Of a DNA stretch of 64,000 nt, positions 1 to 51,777 are shown piece after piece. Below the pieces are notes generated by a model that did not search any database, was not told the origin of the DNA, and was given only the letters and a program-made list of their open reading frames with translations. The DNA comes from Candidatus Porifericomitales bacterium (lineage in GTDB: Bacteria > Pseudomonadota > Gammaproteobacteria > CBDEFV01): the NCBI GenBank assembly GCA_965237735.1, contig CBDEFV010000004.1, positions 1,006 through 65,005 of the forward strand, read 5' to 3'. The stretch's first letter is position 1. Each line of letters starts with the position of its first letter. The translations under genes were made by a program, and so were the position numbers.

Positions 1-2784
1 AGGTGAGAGGGGCAGGAAGCTGAACGTCGTCGTGATTGAACCGGGAGCGCCCGGGGCAAAGCCATCGGCCACGGCGCTGAGGGCAACCACAAGCTCGCGC
101 TCGTCGGGCTCAGGGTAGATCTCACGTCTGAGAACTACAGTGATCTCGCCCCTGCCGCTGCTCTCATCGACAACGATGGCCGGGGTGATCGCGGCGCCAT
201 CGACCGCAGCCGTCACCTCCATGCCGCCCGCCAGGGGGCGGCCGCGCAGGTCGTCGGCACTGCAGTCGTAGACCAGGCGGAGTTCGTCGCCGACGATGTC
301 CGTCGCGTCCGCCGGCAGCAGGCCATGCACGGGGTCCGACAGGGTCATGACCGTGTCGGGAACCGCAAAGCGAACCATCACTCTGTCGGTGCCGATGTTG
401 AGACCGCCGCCGCGGCCGGTAACGGTGAATTTAAATTCAAGCTCGGTTGCGTCGGCGGGCATGACAAAGCTGGCGCGGGCGCTGCCGGCACCCGTCAGGT
501 CTACAATGTTGCCGCTGTTGTCGCTCTGTACCCAGGCATAAGTGACATTGTCTCCCCAAGGGTCGGTGCCGCTGGTAGTGGCCCTGAGGGTGACGGTCTG
601 ACCAGCCTCGGCAGTCTGGTCGGCGCCCGCATTAGCGACAGGCAGGAAGTCTGCGCTGCCAGGGTTGTTTTCCAGAAACAGGGACCGCAGTGCTCTGAAC
701 TCGGAGAATACGCCTGTGGGCAATTCTGTCAAGCCGTTGTTGTATAAAAACAGGTCCTCCAACTCCCTGAGGCCGTCGAATACGCCTACGGACAGCATTG
801 CCAGACGGTTGTTGGGCAACCACAGCTCCTGCAGCGCAGTGAGGCTGTCAAATACGCCCACTGGTAATGCCGTCAGGCGATTGTTGGGCAGCCACAACTC
901 CTTCAGCGCAGTGAGATCGTCAAATACGTCCACGGGCAATGCCGTCAGGCGGTTGTTGAGCAACCACAACTGCTGCAACTCGGCGAGACCGTCAAATACA
1001 CCCACGGGCAATGTCGTCAATTCGTTGCCGCTCAGCCACAGATACCCTAGAGCGGTGAGGTCGTTGAATACGCTTGCGGGCAATGCCGCCAGACGGTTGT
1101 CGGACAGCCCCAGTTGCTGTAGTGCAGTAAGGTCCGAAAAGATCCCCTCAGGCAGTTCCGTCAAACTGTTGCTGTATAGATGCAGGATCTCCAGTGCCCC
1201 GAGACCGCCGAATACGCCCAGAGGCAGTTCTGTCAGACGGTTGGCTTCCAGGTACAGAGCCTCCAACGTAGTGAGGCCGAAGAATACACCCGCTGGCAAT
1301 GTCACCAGGCCGTTGTCGGACAGCTGCAGCTGCTGCACCTCAACTAGATCCGCAAAATCTCCCGGCTTCAGGGTTGCAATATTCCTGCCACGCAGAGACA
1401 GGGTGCCGGTGAGACTCTCCAGCTGGACGGCTGTGACCTCCGAACAGTTGGCAGCGGCAGGAATGAGCGCCACCAGTGCATCGCGCACCGCTTCGGTGCG
1501 GCTGCAGACGCCGTCGCTCGATTCGGCCAGGGCACCCTCTACCTTGTGGCTGCCCTGATGATCAGCATGCCCCGGATAGTTCAGGTCGACAGCAAAGCCT
1601 TCCAGGTTTTCAACGGTGCCGGTGCAGCCGGGAAGCTGATCGGGGCCACAGATGCGGATGCCGTCCTCATCGCGATCGCCCGACTGGACGGTATAGGCAA
1701 ATACCAACTGCCTTGTGCCGCTACCGCGGACATAATCGGCCCGGCGCCGCATGCCGCCGATGTCAATCTCTATCGAGGGCGTGCCGCCGGAGCTGCCCAC
1801 CGCCACGGCGTAATTGAACCTCAGGGTCAGTTCGATGACCTCGCCGCAAAAATAGGTGTCGCCGGCAACCGGGGCCGAGGTCACCGCCAAGTCGGTGACC
1901 GAAATGCCGGTGACGGCGACCCTGTCCGTGTCGGCGTAGCTTTCCCCGACGCTGTAGCCAGGGCCCCTGACGGTGAGCTCAAATTCAAGTTCAATGGCAC
2001 CGGCGGGCATGACAAAACTGGGGCGGGCACCGTTGGCATCCATCAGAGTCACAGCCGGGCTGCTGCCATGAGTCTGCGCCCAGGCGTAGATGACATTGTC
2101 TCCCCAGGGGTCGGCGTCGCTGACGATGGCGGTGAGAGTGACGGCCTGGCCAACTCCGGCTTGCTGATCGGCGCCGGCATTGGCAATGGGAACAAAGTTC
2201 GCGCTGCCGAGATTCCCGCCCAGTTCCAGGAACGACAGCGCCCTGAGGTCCCTGAACAGGCCCGCAGGCAGGACCGCCAGGCTGTTGTCTTCCAGAGACA
2301 AATATTCCAGGGCAGGGAGGTCGGCGAAGGCGTCTGCGGACAGGATCGTCAACATGTTTTCATTCAGTTGCAGGAATCTCAGCGCGCCGAGGCCGTCAAA
2401 CAAGTCCGGGGGCAAGGCCGCAAGTCTGTTTTTGTGGAGCAACAGACGAAGCAGGGAGAGTTCGTCAAAGATATCAGCGGGCAGGGCCATTAAATGGTTA
2501 TCATTCAATTGCAGATCAGCCAGACTGCGGGAGTCGGTGAATATGTTCGAAGGCAGCGTCTTCAGGCGGTTGCTGGACAGTTCCAGGAATTCCATCGAGG
2601 TGAGATCAGTGAATATATTCGCCGGCAATTCCGTCAGGGAGTTGTAGTCCAGAAGCAGAGACATCAGCGCAGTCAGGCCGGTGAAGGCGCCCGGGGAAAG
2701 TGCCGTCAACTGGTTGGAATTCAGGTTCAGGAGTAGCAAGGCACTGAGACCCTCGAATACGCCCGCCGGCAAAGTCACCTGATT
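1..2784 (-). CDS. C-terminal open segment of the LRR protein (LRR modules 2 and 3 with PKD-like domains); no stop seen before the window edge
   Basis: Hand-translated blocks stay in one frame from VFEGLSALLLLNLNSNQL (2760) to SFLPLSP (1). Absent from the ORF track because it has no stop in the window. Confidence 0.8.
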
Positions 2785-3363: not shown

Positions 3364-4683
3364 TTACTGCTGTAATAGTGACTGGCAACGCCGCCGCGGC
3401 CGGCCGCGGCCGGTGGCGGTGAGCTCAAATTCAAGCCCGGTGATGCCGGCCGGCATGGCAAAGCTGGGACGGGCACTGTCGGCCCCCATCAGATCGATGG
3501 TGTTGCTGCTGTCGCCAATCTGCGCCCAGGCATAGCCGACATTGTCCCCCCAAGGGTCGGTGTCGCTGGCTGTAGCCGTGAGGGTGACGACTTCGCCGGC
3601 CATGGCTTGCCGATAAGGGCCTGCATGGGCGACAGGCAGGAAGTCCGCGCTACCGGGGTTGTTCCACAGCATCAGAATCTCCAGCGCCCTGAGACCGGAG
3701 AAGATGCCCGGGGGCAATGCCGTCAGGCGGTTGCCGCTCAGAAACAGAACCTCCAGTTTGCTGAGGCCTGAGAATGCATCCGCTGGCAATTCCGCCAAGT
3801 TATTGTTGTCCAGAAACAGAGCCTCCAGTTTGCTGAGGCCTGAGAATGCATCCGCTGGCAATTCCGCCAAGTTATTTTTGTCCAGAGACAGAGTCTCCAG
3901 TGCCCTGAGGCCTGAGAATGCATCCGCTGGCAATTCCGCCAAGTTATTGTTGTACAGAGACAGAGTCTCCAGTGCCCTGAGGTCTGAGAATGCACCCCCG
4001 GGCAATTCCGCCAAGTTGTTGTTGCCCAGAGACAGAGTCTCCAGTGCCCTGAGGTCTGGTAATGCACCCTCGGGCAATTCCGCCAGACGGTTGTCAAACA
4101 AAGACAGAATTCTCAGAACGACGAGGCCCGTGAATGCACCCTCGGGCAATTCCGTCAGACGGTTGCCGAACAGGAACAGTTCTTTCAGTTTATTAAGGCC
4201 AGGGAAGACGCCCGCGGTCAGTGTCCCCAAGTTGTTGCCTCCCAGATGCAGAGTCTCCAGCGCACCGAGGTCGGAGAATGCACCCAAGGACAATTCTGTC
4301 AGGACGTTGTTGCGCAAATTCAGAGTCCTGAGCGCAGTGAGGCCGGAAAAATCGCCTGCCCGCAGCGTCATGATGCCATTCCCTGCCAAATCGAGAGAGG
4401 TGATCCCCGCAAGGTGGATGTCCGTGACTTCCGCGCAACTGCGGGCAGTCCTCACCGCTCTGACAATACCTGCGCGAACCTCCACAGTGCGGTCGCAGAC
4501 GGGAGTTGGGGCCATGTCGGAGTTGGACGGCTGAGCCTGGGCAGCAGAGGCCGCTACCGCCAGCCCGAACGCCAGCAGGGCCAAGGATCCCCGCCTCAAG
4601 GGGTGTGAAAAAGCGCAACAAACTCCCGAGGGCAAAGACCGAGGTCTGTTGCCGGGTAATGATGGAACGGGTCTCTTCTTCAC
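3364..4683 (-). CDS. N-terminal segment of the LRR protein (signal peptide, LRR module 1, PKD-like domain)
   Basis: ORF track 439 aa; signal-like LALLAFGLAVAASAAQA; about 11 LRRs of 24 aa. Confidence 0.85.
   Translation of the reverse strand: MKKRPVPSLPGNRPRSLPSGVCCAFSHPLRRGSLALLAFGLAVAASAAQAQPSNSDMAPTPVCDRTVEVRAGIVRAVRTARSCAEVTDIHLAGITSLDLAGNGIMTLRAGDFSGLTALRTLNLRNNVLTELSLGAFSDLGALETLHLGGNNLGTLTAGVFPGLNKLKELFLFGNRLTELPEGAFTGLVVLRILSLFDNRLAELPEGALPDLRALETLSLGNNNLAELPGGAFSDLRALETLSLYNNNLAELPADAFSGLRALETLSLDKNNLAELPADAFSGLSKLEALFLDNNNLAELPADAFSGLSKLEVLFLSGNRLTALPPGIFSGLRALEILMLWNNPGSADFLPVAHAGPYRQAMAGEVVTLTATASDTDPWGDNVGYAWAQIGDSSNTIDLMGADSARPSFAMPAGITGLEFELTATGRGRPRRRCQSLLQQ
3751..4090. repeat. 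Near-identical 72-bp tandem repeats encoding LRR units
   Basis: ctccag...gaatgca...ggcaattccgccaagtt recurs at 3751, 3823, 3895, 3967 and 4039. Confidence 0.9.
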
Positions 4684-24456: not shown

Positions 24457-27400
24457 TCAGTCTTTGAGCGCTCCCCAGGAGGCGCCGGCGCCGACATCGA
24501 CCTGCAGCGGCACTTCGAGCTCGACGACGCCGCTCATGCTGGGAGGCAGCATTTCGAGCAGCTGATCGACCGCATTTTCAGCGACCTCAAACACCAGTTC
24601 GTCGTGCACCTGCAGCAGCAGGTGCGCCGGCATGCCTTCCGCGTCCAGCCGGCGATCGACAGCGATCATGGCCATCTTGATGACATCGGCCGCAGTTCCC
24701 TGCACCGGGGCATTGACCGAGACGCGCTCGGCATGGCGGCGGCGCGGCGTCTGTCTGGCGTTGATCTCGGGCAGGTAGATGCGGCGACCGTAGAGGGTCT
24801 CGGCGTAACCGTGCTCGCGGGCCCTGTCGATGGCGCCGTCGCGGTAGGCGCGGACGCCAGGATAGCGGTCGAAATAGGTGCTGATGTAGTGTTCTGCCTC
24901 GCCGCGGCCGATTTTCAGGCGGCGCGACAGGCCGAACGCCGACATGCCGTAGATGATGGCGAAGTTGATCTCCTTGCCGATGCGGCGCTGCTCGGTGGTG
25001 ACCTCGGCCAGGGGCACTCCCATGATCTCGGCGGCCGTGCGGCTGTGCACGTCCTGCCCCTCGGCGAAGGCCTGAAGCAGGGTGGCGTCGGCCGACATGT
25101 GGGCGACGATGCGCAACTCGATCTGGGAGTAGTCGGCGGCGACCAGCATCTGGCCTTCAGGAGCGATGAAGGCCGAGCGGATGCGTTTGCCGCGCTCGCC
25201 GCGGATGGGGATGTTCTGCAGGTTGGGATCGGTCGATGACAGGCGACCGGTGGAGGCGACCGCCTGCTGAAAGGAGCTGTGAACGCGGCCGGTGCGCGCG
25301 TCGATTTCGCGCGGCAGTTTTTCGGTGTAGGTGCCGCGCAGCTTCTCGACCGAGCGGTGGCGCAGAACAAGGCCCGGCAACTCGTGCTCATCGGCCAGCT
25401 CCTCGAGCACTTCCTCTGAGGTCGAAGGCTGGCCCTTGGGGGTCTTGCGCAATACAGGCAGGCCGAGTTTTCCGTAGAGCAGCTCCCCCACCTGACCCGG
25501 GGAGGCCAGATTGAACTCCATGCCGGCGATCTCATGGGCGCGCTGCTGCACCTGGGCGGCTTCTTCCGCCATCTCGCGGCTGAGCCCGTCGAGAAGCCCG
25601 ACATCGATCAGGATGCCGTTGCGCTCCATGCGGGCCAGAACCCGTATTAGCGGCAACTCAATGTCGCCGTAGATGCGCCTGAGGCCCTCCAGGCCCTGAA
25701 CGCGCGGGGCGAGATGGGCCCGCATCGCCAGGGCGGCCGCGGCCCTCCCGGCGGCGAAGGCGGCGGCCTTGTCGATCCCGGTTTCGGCTAGGGGAATGGC
25801 TTTTTTGCCACTGCCGACAAGGTCTTCGAGATTCGACAGTTCGCGCCCGAGATGGCGGCGGGCAATGCTGGCAAAATCGTGGCGGCCCCCCTCGAAGACA
25901 TAGGACAACAGCATGAGATCGTCGGCGACGGCGTTCAGATCGATGCCGACTTCGGCCAGCAGGCCCCACTGCTGCTTGAGATCGTGGCCGACAACGAGGT
26001 GGGCGCCCGATTCGAGCAGTGGCCTGAGGTCGGCGAAGATTCTGGCGGCACTCAACGGCTTCTTCGCCCCCTCGGCCCGGTGCCCCAGAGGCAGGTAGGC
26101 GGTCTTGCCGGCGATGGCCCAGGCGAGGCCGACGGCGCGGCGGGCACCCGATTCGAGCAGCGACTTGAGGCCGGCGAAAATTCTGTTGGCACTCAACTGC
26201 TTCTTCTTCGCCCCCTCGCTCCCGTGCCTCAGAGGCAGGTAGGCGGCCTTGCCGGCGATGGCCCAGGCGAGGCCGACGAGCACGGCGCTGCGCGGATTGG
26301 CGACGTCCGCCAGAATCCACAAAGCAAAGGATTCGGCTGCCTTGAGTTCGGCGTTCCAGCTCTGCCAGTCGGCCTCGGTGAGAATGACGGAGACGGGTTC
26401 GGCCCCGCTGGAGGCTAGGGGCGCAGCGGCGCCGCCGACCTCCTCCGGCAACGAATGCTGCCTGCCCGTCATGGCAAGATAGACCCGGGCCAGCAACTGG
26501 GCGTCGACGAGAGCGCTGTGTCGCTTTTCGCGGCCACTGCTGTCAATGCCGTATCGCTTGCACAGGGCGTCGAGCGAGTTCTGCATCCGCACATGCCTGG
26601 AGCGCGCCATATCCAGAGTATCGCGGATGTCGTCGCACAGCTCAGCCAGCCGGGGCTTGCCGATGCGCTGAAGTTCGCCGTCGAGAAAGCCGGTGTCAAA
26701 CCTGGCGTTGTGGATCAGAAGAATCGAGCCGGAGATAAAATCGCTGAAATCGTCATAGCGATCGGCAAAGTCCGGCTTGTCGGCGAGAAATTCCCGGCTC
26801 AGGCCATGGACGCGGTAGGCCCCCCGCTCAATGTCGCAGTTCGGGTTGAAATAGGAGTGGAACTCCCGGCCGCCAAGGGAGCGACCGACGATTTCGACGC
26901 AGCCGATCTCGATGACCCTGTGACCCTTGGCCATGGAGGAGCCGCTGGTCTCGGTGTCAAGACAGACATATCTGTCGCCTGATCGGGAGGGCATAGGCGC
27001 AGGGGCGCCGACGCCCTCCTGCGGCAGCGTCAGCAGGCTGGCGCCGCCGCGGGTCTGGGCCAGCCAGGTGCGAAATTCGTAGTGTGCCAGCAGCTCTTCC
27101 AGGCGCCCTCGATCCGACGGGCGCAGCCTCAGGTCGGCGGGCGCCTGCTCGAACTCGACATCTTCGCGCAGGGCCACGAGTTCGCGGGTGGCGGGGAGCT
27201 GCTCCACAGTGGCGCGCAGGTTCTCGCCGACGACGCCGCCGATCTCGTCGGCATGTTCGATCAGGGCGCTCAGGGAGCCGTACTGCCCGAGCCAGCGGAC
27301 GGCGGTCTTGGGGCCGCATTTGGCGACTCCGCGAATGTTGTCGGCCTGATCGCCGACCAGAGCCAGATAATCGCCGACGAGCTCCGGCGGCACGCCCATC

Positions 27401-27909
27401 TTGGCGATGACGCCGGCAGAATCGAGGCGCACATTTTTGTTGGGATCGATCATGCTGATGCCGCCGCCGACCAGCTGCATGAGGTCCTTGTCGTTGGAGA
27501 CGACGACGGCCTCGCCGCCGTCGGCTACAGCGCGGCGGGCGAGAGAGGCGATGACATCGTCGGCCTCCAGGCCGGAGTGGGCGACGATCAGCGGTACGCC
27601 GGCGGCGACCAGGACCTCCTTGACGCCGTCTATCTGGCTGCGCAGATCGGGCGGGGCCGGCGGCCGGTTCGCCTTGTAGTCGGGGGCGAGGCGGTGGCGG
27701 AAGGTCGGGCCGGGGGCGTCGAGGATGAAGACGAGGTGGGACGGACGATAGTTTTTGCTGAAGGAGCGCAGCATGTTGACCACGCCGTAAATGGCCGCCG
27801 TCGGCTCGCCTGCGGAATTGCTCATGGGCGGCAGGGCATGGTAGCTGCGGAAGATGGCGGCGGTGCCGTCCACCAGGTAGAGGCTGTGGTCGGAAAAGTC
27901 CTTTTTCAT
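24457..27909 (-). CDS. polA: DNA polymerase I with an inserted DnaQ/epsilon exonuclease domain and a degenerate native 3'-5' exonuclease
   Basis: 5' nuclease (LVDG, YKANR, EADD, DKD), then a DEDDh domain, then family A motifs (GRLSSTDPNLQNIP, DYSQIELR, QVHDE); 1150 aa. Confidence 0.97.
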   Translation of the reverse strand: MKKDFSDHSLYLVDGTAAIFRSYHALPPMSNSAGEPTAAIYGVVNMLRSFSKNYRPSHLVFILDAPGPTFRHRLAPDYKANRPPAPPDLRSQIDGVKEVLVAAGVPLIVAHSGLEADDVIASLARRAVADGGEAVVVSNDKDLMQLVGGGISMIDPNKNVRLDSAGVIAKMGVPPELVGDYLALVGDQADNIRGVAKCGPKTAVRWLGQYGSLSALIEHADEIGGVVGENLRATVEQLPATRELVALREDVEFEQAPADLRLRPSDRGRLEELLAHYEFRTWLAQTRGGASLLTLPQEGVGAPAPMPSRSGDRYVCLDTETSGSSMAKGHRVIEIGCVEIVGRSLGGREFHSYFNPNCDIERGAYRVHGLSREFLADKPDFADRYDDFSDFISGSILLIHNARFDTGFLDGELQRIGKPRLAELCDDIRDTLDMARSRHVRMQNSLDALCKRYGIDSSGREKRHSALVDAQLLARVYLAMTGRQHSLPEEVGGAAAPLASSGAEPVSVILTEADWQSWNAELKAAESFALWILADVANPRSAVLVGLAWAIAGKAAYLPLRHGSEGAKKKQLSANRIFAGLKSLLESGARRAVGLAWAIAGKTAYLPLGHRAEGAKKPLSAARIFADLRPLLESGAHLVVGHDLKQQWGLLAEVGIDLNAVADDLMLLSYVFEGGRHDFASIARRHLGRELSNLEDLVGSGKKAIPLAETGIDKAAAFAAGRAAAALAMRAHLAPRVQGLEGLRRIYGDIELPLIRVLARMERNGILIDVGLLDGLSREMAEEAAQVQQRAHEIAGMEFNLASPGQVGELLYGKLGLPVLRKTPKGQPSTSEEVLEELADEHELPGLVLRHRSVEKLRGTYTEKLPREIDARTGRVHSSFQQAVASTGRLSSTDPNLQNIPIRGERGKRIRSAFIAPEGQMLVAADYSQIELRIVAHMSADATLLQAFAEGQDVHSRTAAEIMGVPLAEVTTEQRRIGKEINFAIIYGMSAFGLSRRLKIGRGEAEHYISTYFDRYPGVRAYRDGAIDRAREHGYAETLYGRRIYLPEINARQTPRRRHAERVSVNAPVQGTAADVIKMAMIAVDRRLDAEGMPAHLLLQVHDELVFEVAENAVDQLLEMLPPSMSGVVELEVPLQVDVGAGASWGALKD
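25994..26278. repeat. In-frame 144-bp diverged tandem duplication within the polA vestigial exonuclease domain
   Basis: VGLAWAIAGK.AYLPL.H..EGAKK..LSA.RIFA.L..LLESGA appears twice; DNA anchors at 26107 and 26251. Confidence 0.92.
26452..26994 (-). other. dnaQ-derived exonuclease domain embedded in polA
   Basis: About 84% aa identity (hand count) to the N-terminal ~180 aa of dnaQ at 33181..33882, starting from the same Met. Confidence 0.93.
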
Positions 27910-28136
27910 CGTACTTCAGGGTAGTGAGAGAGCGCCGCTATCTGCGGGACAGGGCCTCGAGCGCCGGCAGGCTGCGGCCAGCGATGTACTCGAGAGAGGC
28001 GGTGCCGTCAACCAGGTAGAGGCTGTGGTCGGAAAAGTCCTTTTTCATCGTGCTTCAGGGTGGTGAGAGAGCGCCGCTATCTGCGAGACAGGGCTTCGAG
28101 AGCCGGCAGGCTGTGGCCGGCGATGTACTCGAGAAA
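27859..28136. repeat. 139-bp tandem duplication covering the pgk 3' end, the intergenic region and the polA start
   Basis: ggcggtgccgtc...aggctgtggtcggaaaagtcctttttcatc occurs at 27859 and 27998. Confidence 0.93.
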
Positions 28137-29254
28137 GGCGCTGCCGCCCGTGGAGATGTAGGAGATGGAGCCGGTGTCGGCAAAGCGCTCAATGGCGGCC
28201 ACGGTGTCGCCGCCGCCGGCGACCGAAAAAGCCGGGGAGGCGGCGACGGCCTCGGCGAGGGTGCGCGTGCCCCCGCTGAAGCCCTCGTATTCAAAGGCGC
28301 CCAGGGGGCCGCTCCACACCAGGGTGCGGGCGTTCTCGACAAGGCCGACCAGACGCTTGAGCGATTTCGGCCCCAGATCGAAGATGGCCTCGCCGGGGGC
28401 GATGTCATGGACCGACTTGAGGCGGGCCTCGGAGCCCGCCTCAAGGGCCGGGGCCACCACCGCCTCGAGCGGCATTTCAACGGCTGCGGAGCGGCCGAGG
28501 GCGCGGGCGCGGTCGAGCCAGTCGGGCTCGTGCAGCGACGAGCCGATGGCCGTGCCGGCGGCGGCGAGAAAGGTGTTGGCGATGCCGCCGCCGAGAATCA
28601 GGGAATCGACCGGGGGGTCGCCAGCAGGTTTTCCAGCACGGCCGCCTTGGCCGACACCTTGGCGCCGCCGACGATGGCGACCAGCGGCCTCTCGGGGTTG
28701 TGCAGCACCCTTGAGAGGGCCGTCAGTTCGCGTTCCATCAGGGGACCTGCGCAGGCCGCGGGCGCGTGGCGGGCGACGGCCGAGGTCGAGGCCTGGGCGC
28801 GGTGGGCTACGGCAAAGGCGTCCATGACAAAAAGGTCACAGAGCCCTGCCATGCGCCGGCCGAGCTCGTCGTCATCGGCCTTTTCGCCGGCAAGGAAGCG
28901 GCTGTTTTCCAGCAGCACGCAGGAGCCGGGGGCACAGTCAACGCCGGCGAGCCAATCCTGCGCCAGGGCGACCGGCTGCTGCAGATGCTCCTCGAGCCAG
29001 GCGCGTACCGGCGCCAGCGAGAACTGCGGCTCAGCGGCCGGCGAGGCCCCTTCGGTCGGGCGGCCGAGGTGCGACATGAGGAGCACGGCGGCGCCGCGCC
29101 CGAGGCAGTCGCGGACGGTCGGCAGAGCGGCGCGCAGGCGGGCGTCGCTGGCGATGGCGCCGCTGTCGCCGAGGGGCACATTCAGGTCCTCGCGCAGCAG
29201 CACGCGGAGGCCGTGCAGAGAAAAATCGGAGAGGGTTTTCACCGGCAGGGGCAA
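28077..29254 (-). CDS. pgk: Phosphoglycerate kinase (apparent frameshift in the G6 run near 28612)
   Basis: REDLNVP, SHLGRP, GGAKVS; after the shift, ILGGGIANTF, AGGGDT, STGGSAFLE. Confidence 0.93.
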
Positions 29255-29260
29255 GCGTCC

Positions 29261-30262
29261 TCAGGGTCGAGGAAAAAGGCCGGGGACCACGCCCAGGGCC
29301 AGGGCTTCGTAGAGGGCGAAGGCGGCGAAGAGGACGATTGCCTGGAGCCAGCCGCTGCTGCGTTTCGGCGGCAGGCGCAGCAGGGCGAGCAGCAGCAGCA
29401 GGACGAGAAACTGGGCCGGCAGGTCGCGCAGCCAGACCTCATCGGCCAGAGTCAGGGGGGCGATCGATACGGCGGCGCCGATGACCAGCAGGGTGTTGAA
29501 GATATTGGAGCCGAGGACGCCGCCGAAGACGAGATCGCGCTGGCCCTTGAAGGCGGACAGGGTAACGGCGGCGAGCTCCGGTATGCTGGTGCCGACTGCG
29601 ACCAGGGTGAGCCCGATGACGAGTTCGCTGATGCCTGCATAGCGCGCAACCTCGGTGGCGCCGCCGAGGAGCAGCTCCGAAGCGAGGGCGAGAAGAAGCG
29701 GCGAGATCAGGGCCAGAATCAGGTTCACCCTCAGGGAGCGCTGCGGTCGCTGCGGTCGCTGCGGTCGCTGCGGTCGCTGCGGCTCCTGCGGCGGCGGCGC
29801 AATCCCGCCGCGCTTTAGCATCAGGGGGCCGAAGGCGGCGGCAAAGAGAGCCAGGAGCAGGATTCCATCGAGCACAGACAGCCGTCCATCCCAACAGAGC
29901 GCCGACAGCAGTATCAGGGCGCCGAACAGAAGCCAGGCCTGAACCCGGCCGTCCCGGGGCAGTGCCAGGGGCGCGAAGAGCGCGGCCGAACCGGCGATCA
30001 GCATGAAATTGGCGAGGTTGGAGCCGAGGGCGTTGCCGAGAGCAAGTTCGGGCTGATCCCTGAAGGCGGCGACGACCGAGACAAAGAGCTCGGGCAAAGA
30101 GGTGCCGAAACCGATGAAGAGGGCTCCGACGATGGCCGGCGACCAGCCGAGGCCGCGGGCGATGGCGGCGGAGCTGTCGACCAGGATATTGGCCGCCAGC
30201 GCCAACAGCACGAAGCCGCCGGCGAGGGAGGCCAGTACGCCCCAGAAGTTCAAGGGGAGCAC
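29261..30262 (-). CDS. Calcium/sodium antiporter (YrbG/CaCA family)
   Basis: Two alpha repeats GTSLPE...GSN and GTSIPE...GSN. Confidence 0.92.
   Translation of the reverse strand: MLPLNFWGVLASLAGGFVLLALAANILVDSSAAIARGLGWSPAIVGALFIGFGTSLPELFVSVVAAFRDQPELALGNALGSNLANFMLIAGSAALFAPLALPRDGRVQAWLLFGALILLSALCWDGRLSVLDGILLLALFAAAFGPLMLKRGGIAPPPQEPQRPQRPQRPQRPQRSLRVNLILALISPLLLALASELLLGGATEVARYAGISELVIGLTLVAVGTSIPELAAVTLSAFKGQRDLVFGGVLGSNIFNTLLVIGAAVSIAPLTLADEVWLRDLPAQFLVLLLLLALLRLPPKRSSGWLQAIVLFAAFALYEALALGVVPGLFPRP
29739..29782. repeat. 9-bp in-frame VNTR (cgctgcggt, ~4.9 copies) encoding QRP repeats in the antiporter loop
   Basis: Read directly; translates as PQRPQRPQRPQRPQR. Confidence 0.9.
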
Positions 30263-30266
30263 CCCG

Positions 30267-32267
30267 TCACAGGCGCTGCAAATGCTGGGCGAAGCGCTCG
30301 GCATCGACGTAGCCGACAACGCGCATGGCTCCGATCTCCTGGCCGGCACCGTCAAAAAACATCAGGGCCGGAGGCCCAAAGAGCGAGTAGCGCCGCAGGA
30401 ATTGCTGGTCGCTGCGGCTGTTGGCGGTGACGTCGAGTTCGATCAGGGCCCTGTCGGCCAGCAGTCGCTGGACTTCGGGGTCGCGAAAGGTGAAGGCCTT
30501 GAGCTCTTCGCAGCTGATGCACCAATCGGCCGTAACCATGACCAGGGCGCCCCGGGGGCGCGTCTGGAGGGCACGGTCGAGCTCGGCGACAAAGTTGGCG
30601 GCTCCCTTGAGCGGCTGAAAAGCGAGGGCTCGGCCGCTGGTGTTGGTCGGGGAGGCGCCGCCGGAGGACTCGAGATGCGCCAGGGGGGCGAAGAAATCCC
30701 GGCCACCGGAGGCGACGCCGACAAGCAGCAGGGCGCCCCAGAGCAGCAGCGTCAGGCCGGCGGCGCGGCCCCAACTGGCGCCTGCGCCCGGGAACCGCTG
30801 GGAAAAGAGAGCGAGGCCGCTGACCATCAGCAGGAAGGCGGCCACGGCCATGATGACGGCCAGCGGCAGCAGCGGGACCAGCACCCACAGGGACAGGGCG
30901 AGCAACAGCATGCCGAGGATGGCGTTGCTGCGGGCGCGCCAGCGGTCGGTCCGCGGCAGCAGTCGGCCGACACCGAGACCAAAGGCCAACAGCGGCAGAC
31001 CCATGCCGAGGCCGAGCGCGAAAAGGGCGGCGCCGCCGAGCCAGGGATCGCCGCTGCGGGCGATAAACAGCAGGGCGCCGATCAGGGGCGGCGTGACGCA
31101 TGGGCTCACCACCAGAGCGCCGATGGCGCCGAGGCCGGCCGAGGACAGAAGACTGCCGGAGCTGTTGCCGGATACAGGTTGCAGCACCGGTAAGCGCAAC
31201 TCAAAGAGGCCGAAGGACGACAGGGCCATGGCGACGAGGAGCAGGGCCATGAGAATCAGCACCCAGGGCTGAAGGATGTATGCCTGCAGGGAGGCGCCGA
31301 TGAGGCCCGCGGCAACGCCGGCGAGGCTGTAGGTCGAAGCCATGGCCAGCACATAGGCGCAGACGCGGGCAAAGGAGTGGCCGGAGAAACCCTTTTTCGG
31401 CTGCTGATCACCCTGGCTGCCGCTTCCGCCTCTGTCGGCGGCGACGCGGTAGACCAGCGGAATCATGGGGAGCACACAGGGAGTAAAGGCCAGCAACAGG
31501 CCGAAGCCGATGAAAGCCGGCAGCACCAGCCACAGAGAGGCGGCGGCGAGGAAGTGGGCGATGCGCTCCTGCTCCGACAGCTGGCCCCTGAGGCCCGGCC
31601 CCCCTGCCGGCCCCGGCTGCCCAACCCCGCCTGTTCGGGCTGCCGGCGCCGGGCCGCCGGCGCTGAGGTTGAGGCTCGCCGCTGTCAGATAGACCGGGAT
31701 TTCAGTTGTCTGCGGTGGATAGCAGACGCCGAGGGGCTCCTCGCAACCCTGATAGCGAACCCTCAGCAATAGATCGCGCGAGGCCGCCGCGACAACCGCC
31801 ACCCGCAGCAGGGCCTCGCGGTAATAGACCTCGACCGAACCGAAGAAGGGATCACGCTTTTCGACGCCCTCGGGGAAACTGATCGCGGCGAACTCGGCAC
31901 CGGCGGCCTCGACTCCGAACTTGTGGCGGTAGAGGTAGTAGCCTTCGGCGATCTGCCAGTGAAGGTCGAGGGCGGCCGAGCCGTCTTCGGCTGGCCGGGC
32001 GCTGAGGACAAAAGCTTTTTCGGCCGGCAGCAGCCCGGTGTCGCCCAGCTGCAACTGGGCCCGGGCCGGAGAGGCCGCAGACAGCAGGAGAGCGGCCAGC
32101 AACAGGGCGAGAGAGGCGATCTGGAGCGCCGTCCATTCACTGATCCTGCGGCGGACGGGAGCCACTGGCCTCGGAACCTTCGGGCCCCGAACCTCGACCG
32201 GGGCATGTTCAGGGGTCTGTTCAGCAAAGCCGTGAACTGGCTTCAGGAGGGCGGAAAAAAAGTGCAT
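30267..32267 (-). CDS. dsbD: Thiol:disulfide interchange protein DsbD (start uncertain)
   Basis: QGC...CYPP, FTPCVLPM, SPC, WCISC thioredoxin motif. Confidence 0.94.
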   Translation of the reverse strand: MHFFSALLKPVHGFAEQTPEHAPVEVRGPKVPRPVAPVRRRISEWTALQIASLALLLAALLLSAASPARAQLQLGDTGLLPAEKAFVLSARPAEDGSAALDLHWQIAEGYYLYRHKFGVEAAGAEFAAISFPEGVEKRDPFFGSVEVYYREALLRVAVVAAASRDLLLRVRYQGCEEPLGVCYPPQTTEIPVYLTAASLNLSAGGPAPAARTGGVGQPGPAGGPGLRGQLSEQERIAHFLAAASLWLVLPAFIGFGLLLAFTPCVLPMIPLVYRVAADRGGSGSQGDQQPKKGFSGHSFARVCAYVLAMASTYSLAGVAAGLIGASLQAYILQPWVLILMALLLVAMALSSFGLFELRLPVLQPVSGNSSGSLLSSAGLGAIGALVVSPCVTPPLIGALLFIARSGDPWLGGAALFALGLGMGLPLLAFGLGVGRLLPRTDRWRARSNAILGMLLLALSLWVLVPLLPLAVIMAVAAFLLMVSGLALFSQRFPGAGASWGRAAGLTLLLWGALLLVGVASGGRDFFAPLAHLESSGGASPTNTSGRALAFQPLKGAANFVAELDRALQTRPRGALVMVTADWCISCEELKAFTFRDPEVQRLLADRALIELDVTANSRSDQQFLRRYSLFGPPALMFFDGAGQEIGAMRVVGYVDAERFAQHLQRL

Positions 32268-33180: not shown

Positions 33181-33882
33181 TCAGGAAAGCTCCCGCAATC
33201 GCCGGGCCTCGTCAAAATAGGCGGCATCAGCCTGCTTCTCGACTTCCCCGGCCCGCCGCACCGGCAAGTCCTGCCCCAGCTTCCCCAACCCCTGCACCCA
33301 CCGACCCCTGGATGCGGAACTGCCGGCGGCGATATCCATGCCCTGCTGTCTGCGCGTCATGGCAAGATAGACCCGGGCCAGCAACCAAGCGTCGACGAGG
33401 GCGCTGTGCCGCTCCTCGCGGCCGCTTCTGTCGATGTTGTATCGCTCACAGAGGGCGTCGAGCGAGTTCCGCATCCCCGCATGCCGGGAGCGCGCCATAT
33501 CCAGGGTGTCGACGATATGACCGCACAGCTCGGCCAGCGGCGACTTGCCGATGCGCCCGAGTTCGCCGTCGAGAAAGCCGGCGTCGAACTCGGCGTTGTG
33601 AATCAGGAGAGTCGAGCCGGAGATAAAATCGCTGAAATCGTCAAAGCGATCGGCAAATTCCGGCTGGTCGGCGAGGAATTCCCGACTCAGGCCGTGGACG
33701 CGGTAGGCCCCCGGCTCAATGTCGCAGTTCGGGTTGAAATAAGAGTGGAACTCCCGGCTGCTGGGGGAGCGACCGACGATTTCGACGCAGCCGATCTCGA
33801 TGACCCTGTGACCCTCGGCCATGGCGAAGCCGCTGGTCTCGGTGTCGAGACAGACATATCTGTCGCCTGGTCGGGAGGGCAT
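33181..33882 (-). CDS. dnaQ: DNA polymerase III epsilon subunit
   Basis: LDTETSG, GHRVIEIG, HNAEFD, HSALVDA, LAMT, plus a C-terminal tail. Confidence 0.95.
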   Translation of the reverse strand: MPSRPGDRYVCLDTETSGFAMAEGHRVIEIGCVEIVGRSPSSREFHSYFNPNCDIEPGAYRVHGLSREFLADQPEFADRFDDFSDFISGSTLLIHNAEFDAGFLDGELGRIGKSPLAELCGHIVDTLDMARSRHAGMRNSLDALCERYNIDRSGREERHSALVDAWLLARVYLAMTRRQQGMDIAAGSSASRGRWVQGLGKLGQDLPVRRAGEVEKQADAAYFDEARRLRELS

Positions 33883-35007: not shown

Positions 35008-35408
35008 GCACGGGATCGGCAGTCAGGCCTTAATGATAACGCCAGCGCCGTTTCCCGACCTTGGGGAAGGAGTGCAGCAGGCGGGGAAAATTGGCGGTTC
35101 TGCAAACTTTTTGCCGCCGGTTCCGCGGTCAGGGCAGTGAAAAGAATCAGCATTGAGTGCCCGCTCTTTTTCTTCTTTTTCGCCGTTTTCGACAACCTTT
35201 GTGCTATATTCTTTACAGTCTTTACGAAAATGTATCATCTTTCCCGGCTGGTGTTCCGATAGCCGTTTATTCTAGGAAGGGAACATCGGCTTCACCGTTG
35301 CTTGCTGCGCCACCTACAGCACCCTTTAAAATTATTCATGCCCATGTTTTTAACAATACCCTCGCAGCAACCGGCGATCGCCCTCTAGGACAGGGCAGTT
35401 CAGGAGCC

Positions 35409-36326
35409 ATGCTTCAGCGCACTCTTCACAATTCGATCAAAGCCTCGGGAGCGGGTCTGCACACAGGGAGAAAGGTCACCATCTGCCTGCGGCCGGCGGA
35501 ACCTGACACGGGCATCGTCTTTCAATGCACGGACCAACCGGGGGCTGAGCCCATGCGCGCCCTCAGCGACGCCGTCAGCGACACCAACCTCGCCACCACC
35601 ATAGGCCCTCCCGGCCAGTCGGTGGCGACAATTGAGCATCTCATGGCAACCTTCTACGCCTTTGGCGTCGACAACTGCCTCGTCGAAGTCACCGGCAATG
35701 AGGTGCCGATCATGGACGGCAGCGCCGGACCTTTTGTCTTTCTCCTTAAAAGCACCGGCATCGTCGAGCAGTCGGTGCCCAAGAAGTTCATCCGCATTCG
35801 CAGGAAAGTGCGGGTTCAGGACGGCGAGAAATGGGCCGAACTGCGACCCGAACAGGGCTTTTCCCTCGACTATCAAATCGATTTCAACCACCCGGTAATC
35901 CAAGCCAGCACCAGTAGATATCACTTCGATTTTTCCTCCCTGGCCTTCATCAAGGAGATCAGCCGCTCCCGCACCTTCGGCTTCCTCGACGACATCGAGA
36001 CCATGAGAGGAAAGGGGCGGGCCCTCGGCGGCAGCATCGACAACGCCATCGTCCTTGATCCCTACCGCCTGCTGAACCCTCACGGCCTCAGGGACCGCGA
36101 CGAGTTCGTCAAGCACAAGATTCTCGACGCCATCGGCGATCTCTATCTCATCGGCCATCCCCTGATCGGCCACTACTCCGGCTACAAGTCGGGGCACAGT
36201 CTCAACCACAAGCTGTTACAGAAACTGCTGCAGAAAGAAAAAGCCTGGGAATACGTGGTCTTCGAGGAGAAGACGGGCGCCAGGGAAATCCAGTTCTTTC
36301 CGATCGACGGCATTCCCGTCTACTAG
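35409..36326 (+). CDS. lpxC: UDP-3-O-acyl-N-acetylglucosamine deacetylase
   Basis: QRTL, GLHTG, TIEHL, PIMDGS, RTFGF, HKILD; ATG at 35409 after a GGAG RBS. Confidence 0.97.
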   Translation: MLQRTLHNSIKASGAGLHTGRKVTICLRPAEPDTGIVFQCTDQPGAEPMRALSDAVSDTNLATTIGPPGQSVATIEHLMATFYAFGVDNCLVEVTGNEVPIMDGSAGPFVFLLKSTGIVEQSVPKKFIRIRRKVRVQDGEKWAELRPEQGFSLDYQIDFNHPVIQASTSRYHFDFSSLAFIKEISRSRTFGFLDDIETMRGKGRALGGSIDNAIVLDPYRLLNPHGLRDRDEFVKHKILDAIGDLYLIGHPLIGHYSGYKSGHSLNHKLLQKLLQKEKAWEYVVFEEKTGAREIQFFPIDGIPVY

Positions 36327-37566
36327 GCAACCATCTGGTTGCGATTCCATACCGGAGGTCGCGGAGCGGATTCTTCCCTCAGAGGCAAACGGCTCCGGCA
36401 ATCGAGCCGGCAATACCCCTGCAGGAAGAAAGGGCTGGGGAATACGTGGTCTTCGAGGAGAAGGCGGGCGCCGGGGAAATCCAGTTCTTTCCGATCGACG
36501 GCATTCCCGTCTACCAAGCAACCATCTGGTTGCGATTCCATACCGGAGGTCGCGGAGCGGATTCTTCCCTCAGAGGCAAACGGCTCCGCCAATCGAGCCG
36601 GCAATACCCCTGCAGGAAGAAAGGGCTGGGGAATACGTGGTCTTCGAGGAGAAGGCGGGCGCCGGGGAAATCCAGTTCTTTCCGATCGACGGCATTCCCG
36701 TCTACCAGGCAACCATCTGGTTGCGATTCCATACCGGAGATCGCGGAGCGGATTCTTCCCTCAGAGGCAAACGGCTCCGCCAATCGAGCCGGCAATACCC
36801 CTGCAGGAAGAAAGGGCTGGGGAATACGTGGTCTTCGAGGAGAAGGCGGGCGCCGGGGAAATCCAGTTCTTTCCGATCGACGGCATTCCCGTCTACCAGG
36901 CAACCATCTGGTTGCGATTCCATACCGGAGATCGCGGAGCGGATTCTTCCCTCAGAGGCAAACGGCTCCGCCAATCGAGCCGGCAATACCCCTGCAGGAA
37001 GAAAGGGCTGGGGAATACGTGGTCTTCGAGGAGAAGGCGGGCGCCGGGGAAATCCAGTTCTTTCCGATCGACGGCATTCCCGTCTACCAGGCAACCATCT
37101 GGTTGCGATTCCATACCGGAGATCGCGGAGCGGATTCTGCCCTCAGAGGCAAACGGCTCCGCCAATCGAGCCGGCAATACCCCTGCAGGAAGAAAGGGCT
37201 GGGGAATACGTGGTCTTCGAGGAGAAGGCGGGCGCCGGGGAAATCCAGTTCTTTCCGATCGACGGCATTCCCGTCTACCAGGCAACCATCTGGTTGCGAT
37301 TCCATACCGGAGATCGCGGAGCGGATTCTTCCCTCAGAGGCAAACGGCTCCGCCAATCGAGCCGGCAATACCCCTGCAGGAAGAAAGGGCTGGGGAATAC
37401 GTGGTCTTCGAGGAGAAGGCGGGCGCCGGGGAAATCCAGTTCTTTCCGATCGACGGCATTCCCGTCTACCAGGCAACCATCTGGTTGCGATTCCATACCG
37501 GAGATCGCGGAGCGGATTCTGCCCTCAGAGGCAAACGGCTCCGCCAATCGAGCTGGCAATACCCCC
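36228..37566. repeat. Tandem array of 7 x 191 bp (last ~33 codons of lpxC plus ~92 bp of downstream DNA)
   Basis: aatacgtggtcttcgagg occurs at 36250, 36441, 36632, 36823, 37014, 37205 and 37396. Confidence 0.96.
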
Positions 37567-51589: not shown

Positions 51590-51777
51590 TACCGGCTCGT
51601 CAGGCGCCAGCCGTCCGGGAAGGGGCAGCGATAGACCTTCAAGGCTGACGCCCATCTCCCGGCGCGAGATCTGCCCCCTCTTCCCGGCGATTTCCCTCGA
51701 CGGGTAGAGTTCCCTGCTGCCGCCCCGGCCATCGACGCAGACCGCGCATCTGGCGCTCGGCCTGTGCCTGTCTTCAG
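51590..51777 (-). pseudogene. Degenerate tandem duplicate of the 3' half of the 51778..52128 gene
   Basis: Matches 51779..51965 with a 188-189 bp period and a 1-bp indel. Confidence 0.8.

What the first reader, a model, noticed from the sequence alone, without database searches (positions are those of the whole stretch)
24457..27909. DNA polymerase I that has replaced its dead proofreading domain with a captured Pol III epsilon (DnaQ) exonuclease
Seen in sequence: PolA is 1150 aa, and a ~180-aa DEDDh domain (26994-26452) sits in frame between the 5' nuclease and the Klenow part. The domain starts at its own Met (MPSRSGDRYVCLDTETSG) and is about 84% identical by hand count to the standalone dnaQ 6 kb away. 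All epsilon catalytic residues are kept (DTE, HNARFD, HSALVD). The native Klenow exonuclease has lost all three motifs: ExoI FDTET reads ALWILAD, ExoII NLKYD reads DLKQQ, and ExoIII YAAED reads FAAGR. Established: Pol I proofreads with a DEDDy domain, and some lineages have simply lost it. Epsilon-like domains are known fused to PolC, DinG and UvrC-like proteins, but I know of no description inside Pol I. Inference: proofreading was regained by local gene duplication and domain capture. The copies differ at ~29 residues, which argues against a mis-assembly.
Basis: partly seen in the sequence, partly recalled or inferred. Interest (0 to 1): 0.92.

Follow-up and report, generated by a model that had tools for sequence, protein, structure and literature searches.

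The report
Pol I carrying a captured epsilon exonuclease
The only DNA polymerase I gene of this bacterium has a dead proofreading domain and carries, in frame, a well-kept copy of the proofreading domain of the main replicase, an arrangement not found in any other bacterial Pol I searched.

Summary
polA (24457-27909, minus strand, 1150 aa) holds a DEDDh epsilon (DnaQ) catalytic domain in the linker between the 5' nuclease and the Klenow-type exonuclease domain. That native domain has lost all DEDDy catalytic residues. The insert is 80% identical in protein and 87% in DNA to the free dnaQ 6.9 kb away. It passes NCBI's epsilon equivalog cut-offs on its own, but it lacks epsilon's C-terminal alpha-binding tail.

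New here:
- A 32-nt target-site duplication (27/32 identical) flanks the insert.
- A sister lineage (PolA 85-86% identical) has the same dead exonuclease motifs, no insert and one copy of the target.
- Contigs from two studies bridge both junctions without a difference.
- The insert fits an epsilon profile as well as the two free copies. Simulated random change never does (0 of 600).

No other Pol I with this build turned up in two very large protein searches, 340 same-class genomes or three paper searches. The closest precedent is trypanosome POLIB.

Exonuclease activity and proofreading in cis are inferred, not shown. Whether the capture came before or after the split from the sister lineage is unresolved.

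The parts
24457..27909 (-). polA, 1150 aa, the only family A polymerase gene found in the genome
   Evidence: ORF. NCBIfam DNA polymerase I equivalog NF004397 scores 1011.5 bits (cut-off 720). There is a single PF00476 match in the genome.
27109..27882 (-). 5'-3' exonuclease (FEN) domain, aa 10-267
   Evidence: Pfam PF02739 E 2.3e-48 and PF01367 E 4.7e-25. The acidic residues invariant across 31 PolAs are kept.
26996..27027 (-). Upstream copy of the 32-nt direct repeat (target-site duplication), aa 295-305
   Evidence: 27/32 identical to the downstream copy. None of 284 random offset grids in the same gene reaches 27 (maximum 21).
26452..26995 (-). Inserted epsilon (DnaQ) catalytic domain, Met306 to about aa 486; DEDDh residues D318, E320, D405, H464, D469
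   Evidence: Pfam RNase_T at 315-477. Alone it scores NF004316 234.8 bits (cut-off 196) and TIGR01406 226.1 bits (cut-off 222.7), covering model positions 1-178 of 231. AF2 with a DnaQ alignment gives pLDDT 91.0; the best PDB fold match is E. coli epsilon 2gui (TM 0.93 by target, rmsd 1.3 A).
26420..26451 (-). Downstream copy of the 32-nt direct repeat, aa 487-497
   Evidence: The sister PolA has a single copy of this stretch.
25600..26403 (-). Klenow-type 3'-5' exonuclease domain with no catalytic residues left (aa about 503-770)
   Evidence: ExoI, ExoII and ExoIII read FALWILAD, DLKQQ and FAAGR, against FDTET, NLKYD and YAAED in 10 relatives. The Pfam match is only partial. In the AF2 model, residues 503-536 and 591-770 fold with block pLDDT of about 61-93.
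25986..26287 (-). Tandem duplication of about 144 nt (48 aa; units aa 542-591 and 592-638) inside the dead exonuclease domain
   Evidence: TRF gives period 144, 2.1 copies, 85% matches; see also repeat finder D4/D5. It is absent from the sister PolA. The first unit has low confidence in the AF2 model, where it has no alignment depth.
24472..25593 (-). Family A polymerase domain, aa 773-1146, with motifs A, B and C intact
   Evidence: Pfam PF00476 E 8.6e-151. D926-R933, R975/K979/Y987 and H1102-D1103-E1104 lie in columns invariant across 31 PolAs.
33181..33882 (-). Free-standing dnaQ (epsilon), 233 aa, with the C-terminal tail; paralogue of the insert
   Evidence: NF004316 237.3 bits and TIGR01406 227.5 bits, covering model positions 1-222. 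BLASTP to the insert gives 80% identity.
27859..28136 (-). 139-nt tandem duplication (93-94% alike) spanning the 3' end of the upstream pgk-like gene, the spacer and the first 17 codons of polA
   Evidence: the repeat finder D2, TRF and the sequence itself. It creates a 36-aa chimeric ORF at 27938-28048.

Best explanation
This is a real chimeric polA.

Origin (inferred):
- About 544 nt of this lineage's own dnaQ were copied into the flexible linker between the 5' nuclease and the 3'-5' exonuclease domain of Pol I. The copied part runs from the start codon to the end of the catalytic domain.
- The event duplicated 32 nt of the target. Insert plus one repeat is 576 nt, or 192 codons, so the frame is kept.
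- This is the footprint expected of a replication template switch or a staggered-break repair, not of a transposon.
- The 3'-5' exonuclease domain had already lost, or was then losing, all its catalytic residues.

What the insert is (shown):
- It has the full DEDDh active site and a confidently predicted epsilon fold.
- It lacks the alpha-binding tail, and epsilon's clamp-binding motif is cut. It therefore cannot serve Pol III.

Most likely function (inferred): it acts in cis as a 3'-5' exonuclease on a tether, trimming mismatched or frayed primer ends for the Pol I polymerase domain. This resembles the way epsilon works on a flexible tether beside Pol III alpha. Conservation of the domain shows selection for a folded, epsilon-like domain.

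Not shown: exonuclease activity, and hand-over of the primer end between the polymerase site and the insert.
For: Real and single-copy:
- Contigs from 2 studies bridge both junctions with no differences at even depth.
- The identical protein is on record on 2 contigs.

Origin:
- The insert groups with the free dnaQ and the sister's dnaQ at 100/100 support, against 14 same-class epsilons.
- The flanking repeat is 27/32 identical, and 0 of 284 random grids reach that.
- The sister PolA (P0166/P0167, 908 aa) has one copy of the target and no insert.

Dead native domain, shared with the sister: FAMWILAD, DLKQQ and YAVER in the sister, while 10 of 10 same-class relatives keep the motifs.

Insert kept in shape:
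- All 5 catalytic residues align with those of solved E. coli epsilon.
- It passes both epsilon equivalog cut-offs on its own.
- On the domain model TIGR00573 it scores 160.1 bits, against 149.8 for the free copy and 144.7 for the sister.
- On an HMM built from 101 outgroup DnaQs the scores are insert 272.2, free 274.1 and sister 272.6 bits. After 20 or 26 random non-synonymous changes to the free copy the score falls to 231 +/- 9 or 218 +/- 9, and 0 of 300 simulations in each set reach the insert's score.
- dN/dS between insert and free copy is 0.46, with dS 0.25.
- The AF2 model has pLDDT 91 with low-confidence flanks, and its fold is closest to epsilon186.

The rest of the enzyme is intact: polymerase and 5' nuclease residues are invariant, and this is the only polA in the genome.
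Against: - No activity, expression or structural data exist.
- About half of bacterial Pol I orthologues lack an active proofreader (PMC12926913, section 15). Proofreading by Pol I is therefore often dispensable, and the sister lineage does without the insert.
- An open frame is no argument for function. Any frameshift here would also destroy the essential downstream polymerase domain.
- dN/dS of 0.46 is high for epsilon.
- If the sister's dnaQ is used to polarise changes, 20 of 31 differences fall on the insert and 5 on the free copy. This could mean relaxed constraint. However, 5 of those 20 (G347, K378, K451, G482, S486) return to the outgroup consensus.
- The 101-sequence HMM used 87 proteins that had been picked by likeness to a query containing the insert. 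This may bias it slightly in the insert's favour.
- The same gene and window hold other tandem duplications with no evident function. This genome is prone to such events.
- The full-length AF2 model says nothing about where the insert sits, because there was no alignment depth in that region.
Confidence: 0.55

Rival explanations
1. Tolerated passenger. The epsilon domain landed by chance in a flexible linker of an essential gene, in a genome prone to small duplications. It is carried along without any selected function.
For: - Several other local duplications have no evident use: the 139-nt duplication that makes a 36-aa chimeric ORF, the 48-aa duplication in the dead exonuclease domain, and seven 191-nt repeats of the lpxC 3' end.
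- The sister lineage lacks the insert.
- Pol I proofreading is often dispensable (PMC12926913, section 15).
- dN/dS is 0.46.
- Keeping 5 of 5 catalytic residues is not improbable by chance at this level of divergence (my estimate, about one in two).
Against: - The insert fits epsilon profiles as well as, or better than, the two free epsilons.
- 0 of 600 simulated random-change sequences reach its score.
- In the best tree it has the shortest path from the common node: 0.089, against 0.14 for the free copy and 0.31 for the sister.
- No in-frame deletion has eroded it, although dS is 0.25.
Confidence: 0.2
2. The insert is a selected nuclease but not a proofreader. It works with the neighbouring 5' nuclease on repair or Okazaki-fragment intermediates (3' flaps, blocked or damaged 3' ends), or it serves as a docking module. 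It does not correct the enzyme's own misincorporations.
For: - It sits next to the 5' nuclease, on long low-confidence linkers, not under the palm where family A proofreaders sit.
- Its net charge is -1, against -9 and -10 for the two free copies. This would suit DNA binding on its own.
- The stretch after the core, QHSLPE, aligns with the engineered clamp-binding motif QLSLPL in 5fku chain D.
- POLIB's DEDDh insertion gives a dominant, non-processive exonuclease (PMC9731263, passages read).
Against: - The clamp-like motif lacks the last hydrophobic residue, and half of it comes from the duplicated polA target.
- Some of the extra positive charges are ancestral epsilon residues lost in the free copies (K378, K451).
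- Nothing here distinguishes proofreading from other 3'-end trimming.
Confidence: 0.2
3. Assembly chimera: a metagenome assembler joined polA and dnaQ reads.
For: The genome is in 7 contigs and may be a metagenome-assembled genome. The insert shares long exact words with dnaQ, and Logan unitigs break at those points.
Against: - The insert differs from dnaQ at 74 of 558 bases.
- It is in frame at both ends and flanked by a diverged 32-nt duplication.
- Contigs from two studies bridge both junctions with no differences and even depth.
Confidence: 0.02

Closest known systems
Trypanosoma brucei mitochondrial POLIB (family A polymerase with a DEDDh DnaQ-like insertion)
   Same: It is a family A polymerase whose 3'-5' exonuclease is a DEDDh (DnaQ/RNase T-like) domain inserted on linkers, not the usual DEDDy domain. 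The recombinant enzyme has exonuclease activity (PMC9731263, abstract and passages read).
   Different: - POLIB is eukaryotic and organellar.
- Its insertion is 369 aa in the thumb of the polymerase domain, it has no 5' nuclease, and it is conserved across kinetoplastids.
- Here the protein is a bacterial Pol I orthologue, the insertion is in the FEN-exonuclease linker, the dead DEDDy domain is retained, the donor gene is still nearby, and only one lineage has it.
PolC and DnaE1-DnaQ fusions (C-family replicases with a built-in epsilon-like domain)
   Same: An epsilon-type DEDDh proofreader is joined covalently to the polymerase it serves. This compensates for an inactive intrinsic proofreader, the PHP domain (PMC12926913, passages read). 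PolC chains are among the fold and sequence matches of the insert.
   Different: The polymerase family differs (C, not A). The fusions are ancient and widespread, and they serve the replicase, not the repair and maturation polymerase.
Pol III epsilon subunit (DnaQ) of Proteobacteria
   Same: The insert passes both epsilon equivalog models, is 45-48% identical to E. coli epsilon, and has the same five catalytic residues and the same fold.
   Different: It has no C-terminal alpha-binding segment and its clamp-binding motif is cut. It is not a free subunit.
Pol I orthologues with inactivated DEDDy domains (Firmicutes, Actinobacteria; APEX/PolA2)
   Same: The native 3'-5' exonuclease fold is kept without its catalytic residues (PMC12926913, section 15; PMC10201439, passages).
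   Different: Those enzymes simply lack proofreading. I saw none reported with a second, DEDDh domain: the words DEDDh, DnaQ, epsilon and RNase T do not occur in PMC10201439.

Membership tests
DNA polymerase I (PolA1, E. coli Pol I orthologues) | [quoted passage not shown] | tested here: met
   PF02739 E 2.3e-48 and PF01367 E 4.7e-25.
DNA polymerase I (PolA1, E. coli Pol I orthologues) | Family A polymerase domain with motifs A, B and C | tested here: met
   PF00476 E 8.6e-151. The motif residues lie in invariant columns of 31 PolAs.
DNA polymerase I (PolA1, E. coli Pol I orthologues) | Score above the curated equivalog cut-off | tested here: met
   NF004397 1011.5 bits (cut-off 720) and TIGR00593 837.8 bits (cut-off 600).
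DNA polymerase I (PolA1, E. coli Pol I orthologues) | DEDDy active site in the 3'-5' exonuclease domain (present in about half of members) | tested here: not met
   The window reads FALWILAD / DLKQQ / FAAGR, against FDTET / NLKYD / YAAED in 10 relatives.
Pol III epsilon subunit (DnaQ, TIGR01406 / NF004316) | DEDDh catalytic residues (D12, E14, D103, H162, D167 of E. coli) | tested here: met
   D318, E320, D405, H464 and D469 align with them in 5fku chain D.
Pol III epsilon subunit (DnaQ, TIGR01406 / NF004316) | Score above the equivalog cut-off | tested here: met
   The insert alone scores NF004316 234.8 bits (cut-off 196) and TIGR01406 226.1 bits (cut-off 222.7).
Pol III epsilon subunit (DnaQ, TIGR01406 / NF004316) | C-terminal segment that binds the PHP domain of alpha | tested here: not met
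   The insert covers model positions 1-178 of 231. The tail present in the free copy, the sister and 14 outgroups is missing.
Pol III epsilon subunit (DnaQ, TIGR01406 / NF004316) | Clamp-binding motif just after the catalytic core | tested here: inconclusive
   QHSLPE aligns with QLSLPL of the engineered epsilon in 5fku, but it lacks the final hydrophobic residue and part of it comes from the duplicated polA target. The motif consensus is recalled, not taken from a call.
Pol III epsilon subunit (DnaQ, TIGR01406 / NF004316) | 3'-5' exonuclease activity on mismatched primer ends | not testable with these tools
   This needs purified protein.
POLIB-type family A polymerases | DEDDh domain inserted in the thumb of the polymerase domain | tested here: not met
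   The insert lies at aa 306-486, upstream of the exonuclease and polymerase domains.

The most novel reading that the evidence does not exclude
This would be the first bacterial Pol I that proofreads with a replicase-type epsilon domain wired in cis. It would show that the epsilon core can serve a family A polymerase without alpha, theta or the clamp. It would also record the birth of a new polymerase architecture with the donor gene, the target-site duplication and an insert-free sister enzyme all still available for comparison. Finally, it would be a natural template for adding proofreading to exonuclease-dead Pol I enzymes.
Probability: 0.4. Interest if true: 0.8.

Novelty: new variant of a known kind. 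Interest (0 to 1): 0.7.

Why it matters
Polymerases and their proofreaders are usually treated as ancient, fixed pairings: DEDDy with families A and B, and epsilon or PHP with family C. Here a pairing has been re-made recently enough that every piece of the event can still be read:
- the donor gene 6.9 kb away;
- the 32-nt duplication left by the insertion;
- the dead native domain;
- a sister enzyme without the insert.

If the insert is active, this gives a direct test of whether a proofreader is a portable module and of what a polymerase needs in order to hand its primer end to a foreign exonuclease. The practical interest is in high-fidelity Pol I-type enzymes.

If the insert is inactive, it is still a clean example of how template switching builds new multidomain genes in bacteria.

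Tried and rejected
- **Docking of the insert on the rest of the enzyme.** Complex prediction with the Klenow-like part (aa 497-1150, alignment A6) against the insert (alignment A7) scored 0.00 against a mark of 0.32, with the verdict 'no answer'. I report it here only; it is no evidence either way.
- **Full-length model.** The AF2 model made with a PolA-only alignment gave pLDDT below 50 over 298-443 and 454-502, because the alignment has no depth there. It says nothing about the insert's fold or position.
- **Misaligned alignments.** In two mixed PolA + DnaQ alignments (A4 and A5) MAFFT misplaced the insert. In A5 it put the relatives' active exonuclease domains on top of it (checked). A4 showed the same kind of fault, with sister identity of 71% instead of 86%. 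I discarded both.
- **Expression.** No RNA holder was listed among 6 runs, so nothing can be said about expression.
- **Close relatives' DNA.** The genome-contig scan (best 48% identity) and the metagenome-contig scan (best 58%) returned no close kin. I therefore had no DNA of the sister lineage, no synonymous rates for it, and no codon model by branch.
- **Protein Atlas**. Only ordinary Pol I clusters came up. The Atlas holds only clusters of 50 or more members, so this is weak evidence.
- **'The insert evolves four times faster than the free copy'**. I dropped this as a conclusion once the tree and the polarised sites showed that it depends on an unresolved topology.
- **An internal start at Met306 giving an epsilon-Klenow protein.** A GGAGG lies about 22 nt upstream (output), which is too far for a usual ribosome-binding site. 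I did not pursue it.
- **Papers.** Supplementary Figs S5-S8 and the data files of PMC12926913 list PolA1 sequences and active-site states, and might hold a similar case that I could not see.


Full report
**What is there.** The minus-strand ORF at 24457-27909 encodes a 1150-aa protein. Pfam finds the following in order:
- the two parts of the Pol I 5' nuclease (aa 10-267);
- an RNase_T/DEDDh exonuclease domain (aa 315-477, E 2.7e-31);
- a partial match to the Klenow-type exonuclease (aa 624-709, E 1.4e-7);
- a full family A polymerase domain (aa 773-1146, E 8.6e-151).

The whole protein passes NCBI's DNA polymerase I equivalog (1011.5 bits, cut-off 720). It is the only family A polymerase match in the 2.27-Mb, 7-contig, 97%-complete genome, which also has one dnaE and one mutS. 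Residues that are invariant across 31 PolAs in the polymerase motifs and the 5' nuclease are all kept.

**The insert is an epsilon domain.**
- From Met306 the sequence is 152/191 (80%) identical to the free-standing 233-aa dnaQ at 33181-33882, on the same strand 6.9 kb away. In DNA, 74 of 558 bases differ.
- Taken alone (aa 296-500) it passes both curated epsilon equivalog models: NF004316 at 234.8 bits (cut-off 196) and TIGR01406 at 226.1 bits (cut-off 222.7). It covers only model positions 1-178 of 231.
- The C-terminal tail present in the free copy, in the sister lineage's DnaQ and in 14 same-class epsilons is missing.
- Against solved structures the best sequence match is E. coli epsilon (5fku chain D, E 6.8e-47). 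D318, E320, D405, H464 and D469 align with D12, E14, D103, H162 and D167.
- An AF2 model made with a 41-row DnaQ alignment has mean pLDDT 91.0, with the core at 96-98 and low-confidence flanks. Its best fold match is epsilon186 (2gui; TM 0.93 by target, rmsd 1.3 A, 48% identity).

**The native proofreader is dead.** Ten same-class Pol I sequences keep ExoI FDTET, ExoII NLKYD and ExoIII YAAED, with minor variants. The window reads FALWILAD, DLKQQ and FAAGR, so all four carboxylates and the tyrosine are gone. One of the ten comes from the unpublished genome G039; the other nine say the same. The domain also holds a tandem duplication of about 48 residues (units aa 542-591 and 592-638; 144-nt period, 85% matches). 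In the full-length AF2 model, residues 503-536 and 591-770 build the exonuclease fold at moderate to high confidence. The first repeat unit is of low confidence, but it has no alignment depth.

**It is not an assembly artefact.** Logan contigs of four runs from two studies tile 25700-28300 with no listed differences. One contig (26249-27618) spans both junctions. In a second study, separate unitigs bridge each junction at depth 46-54, like the flanks. One study may be the assembly's source. The identical protein is on record on two contigs.

**How it got there.**
- Exactly at the two ends of the dnaQ-derived stretch lie two 32-nt direct repeats (27027-26996 and 26451-26420), 27/32 identical. 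In 284 random trials within the same gene, each scanning 31 x 31 offsets, the best match was 21/32.
- Insert plus one repeat is 576 nt, or 192 codons.
- A sister lineage was found through the protein search. Its PolAs, P0166 and P0167 (908 aa, from ENA contigs of 2.29 Mb and 103 kb), are 85-86% identical to the window's PolA. They have one copy of the repeated stretch, no insert and no 48-aa duplication.
- The event was therefore a duplicative insertion with a long target-site duplication. Established knowledge (recalled, not from a call) associates that footprint with replication template switching or fill-in of a staggered break, not with IS elements, whose duplications are short.
- Both partners have a similar C-rich run at the upstream junction, next to the dnaQ start codon (output). 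This is a candidate microhomology and a possible reason why the copy begins at the ATG. It is inference only.
- The repeat divergence (5/32), the insert-to-dnaQ divergence (13%) and the divergence of the exonuclease duplication (15%) are alike. The 139-nt duplication at the polA start is younger (6-7%).

**Order of events.** The sister PolA has the same dead motifs (FAMWILAD, DLKQQ, YAVER), so the exonuclease died before the two lineages split. The timing of the capture is open.
- The sister's free DnaQ (P0017, 78% identical to the window's free copy) allows a three-way comparison over 181 residues: insert-free 150, free-sister 147, insert-sister 132 identical.
- Polarised by the sister, 20 of the 31 insert-free differences are on the insert, 5 on the free copy and 6 are ambiguous.
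- At five of those 20 sites, however, the insert carries the outgroup consensus and the two free copies share a derived residue (G347, K378, K451, G482, S486). Only two sites (N357, S465) unite the insert with the free copy.
- Maximum-likelihood trees place the insert outside a free + sister pair, with support 97/92 on all columns and 97/89 on the core only. The alternative is not rejected (AU p 0.29 and 0.079).
- Two scenarios remain. Either the capture predates the split and the sister later lost the insert; the flanking repeats would allow a clean deletion. Or the capture is younger and the insert drifted back to consensus at several sites. The sister's DNA would settle this.

**Is the insert under selection?**
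- An open frame is not evidence, because frameshifts would also kill the polymerase domain.
- Keeping five of five catalytic residues is weak evidence at this divergence.
- Stronger evidence: on the domain-level model TIGR00573 the insert scores 160.1 bits, against 149.8 for the free copy and 144.7 for the sister.
- On an HMM built from 101 outgroup DnaQs the three score 272.2, 274.1 and 272.6 bits. After 20 or 26 random non-synonymous changes the free copy falls to 231 +/- 9 or 218 +/- 9, and 0 of 300 simulations in each set reach the insert. Caveat: 87 of the 101 profile sequences had been picked by likeness to a query containing the insert.
- dN/dS between the insert and the free copy is 0.46, with dS 0.25. 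This is below 1 but high for epsilon.
- The insert's net charge is -1, against -9 and -10 for the two free copies and -1 to -15 for 14 outgroups.
- I conclude that a folded, epsilon-like domain is being maintained. I cannot say from sequence what it acts on.

**Likely mechanism.** The insert lacks the alpha-binding tail, and epsilon's clamp motif is cut at the junction. What remains, QHSLPE, aligns with the engineered QLSLPL in 5fku but lacks the last hydrophobic residue, and part of it comes from the polA target. So the domain cannot join Pol III. It hangs between two low-confidence, Gly/Ala/Pro-rich linkers of about 45 and 25 residues, next to the 5' nuclease. The best reading is a tethered 3'-5' exonuclease that serves the Pol I polymerase domain in cis. 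This is analogous to epsilon on its tether beside alpha; for that comparison I saw only the listing and the start of the abstract of PMC3664792. A role in other 3'-end processing, or no selected role at all, are the main rivals.

**How rare is it?**
- 37 of 40 same-class relatives have a polymerase-domain match in a frame of 887-1118 aa. None includes the insert, and their epsilon-like matches lie elsewhere in frames of 213-421 aa. The other three gave no polymerase-domain match.
- In a sample of 300 same-class genomes, 286 have an epsilon match. Among the 150 best rows listed, none apart from the window's own two (its 1152-aa polA frame and its free dnaQ) lies in a frame longer than 434 aa. 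A further 140 rows were not shown.
- A word-indexed search of 5.8 billion protein clusters used the insert region and was restricted to proteins of 632-2013 aa. It gave 15 hits among 6076 candidates, and only the window's own protein combines PF00929 with PF00476.
- An exhaustive phmmer search of 1.84 billion cluster representatives used aa 100-500, a query balanced between the 5' nuclease and the insert. It gave 36,451 hits. None of the best 150 matched both halves as a 5' nuclease-epsilon fusion, and Pfam on the 10 oddest showed multi-RNase_T, RNase H-DnaQ or plain forms. Limit: the window's own protein was not in that list. It is presumably represented by an insert-free relative, so other cases could be hidden in the same way.
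- The Atlas showed only ordinary Pol I clusters.

**Literature.**
- Three searches were run.
- The 2026 survey of polymerases in over 3000 bacterial genomes (PMC12926913; passages and section 15 read) reports that about half of PolA1 enzymes have a broken DEDDy site. In what I read, it describes no DEDDh domain in Pol I.
- The 2023 PolA reclassification (PMC10201439; passages read) does not contain the words DEDDh, DnaQ, epsilon or RNase T.
- The closest precedent is T. brucei POLIB, a family A polymerase with an active DEDDh insertion in its thumb (PMC9731263; abstract and passages read).
- Supplements were closed and could hold a case I did not see.

**Verdict.** I rate it a new variant of a known kind (a polymerase with a fused DEDDh proofreader), seen so far in one lineage, with interest 0.7.

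Noticed in passing
window 27859-28136 (minus strand); small ORF 27938-28048: A 139-nt tandem duplication (93-94% alike) repeats the last 19 codons of the upstream pgk-like gene, the spacer and the first 17 codons of polA. It leaves a 36-aa chimeric ORF: the PolA N-terminus fused to the pgk C-terminus.
   Followed up: partly
window 28077-29254 (minus strand): The phosphoglycerate-kinase-like gene upstream of polA is split into two ORFs (218 aa at 28598-29254 and 132 aa at 28077-28475). This is either a frameshifted gene or a sequence error. The region lies outside the stretch on which contigs were laid.
   Followed up: no
window 36228-37565: Seven tandem copies (98% alike) of a 191-nt unit start inside the 3' end of an lpxC-like gene (35157-36326). 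Each copy repeats its last 25 or so codons plus downstream sequence. A further 188-nt x 2 repeat lies at 51590-51965. Together with the polA events, this suggests a genome prone to tandem duplication at gene ends.
   Followed up: partly
window 768-1100 and 3673-4173: Arrays of 72-nt (24-codon) repeats, 3 to 7 copies, 77-87% alike. They look like leucine-rich-repeat-type coding repeats. I did not examine them.
   Followed up: no
window 29739-29791, in ORF 29261-30355 (minus strand): A 9-nt repeat of about 6 copies encodes a PQR repeat run in the middle of a membrane protein of the sodium/calcium-exchanger type. The family name is my reading of the sequence, not a search result.
   Followed up: no
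database proteins P0016 (611 aa) and P0029 (578 aa): P0016 carries four stretches of RNase_T, i.e. several tandem, partly truncated epsilon-like domains. P0029 is a Pol I fragment with a duplicated 5' nuclease domain. Internal duplication of these replication nucleases therefore also occurs elsewhere.
   Followed up: no
free dnaQ 33181-33882 and sister P0017: The free epsilon of this lineage and of its sister share unusual changes at positions that are near-invariant in 14 same-class epsilons: K to Q at aa 73 (14/14 outgroups K) and G to R at aa 177 (13/14 G). They also have a short, divergent C-terminal tail. The insert keeps the consensus at these sites.
   Followed up: partly
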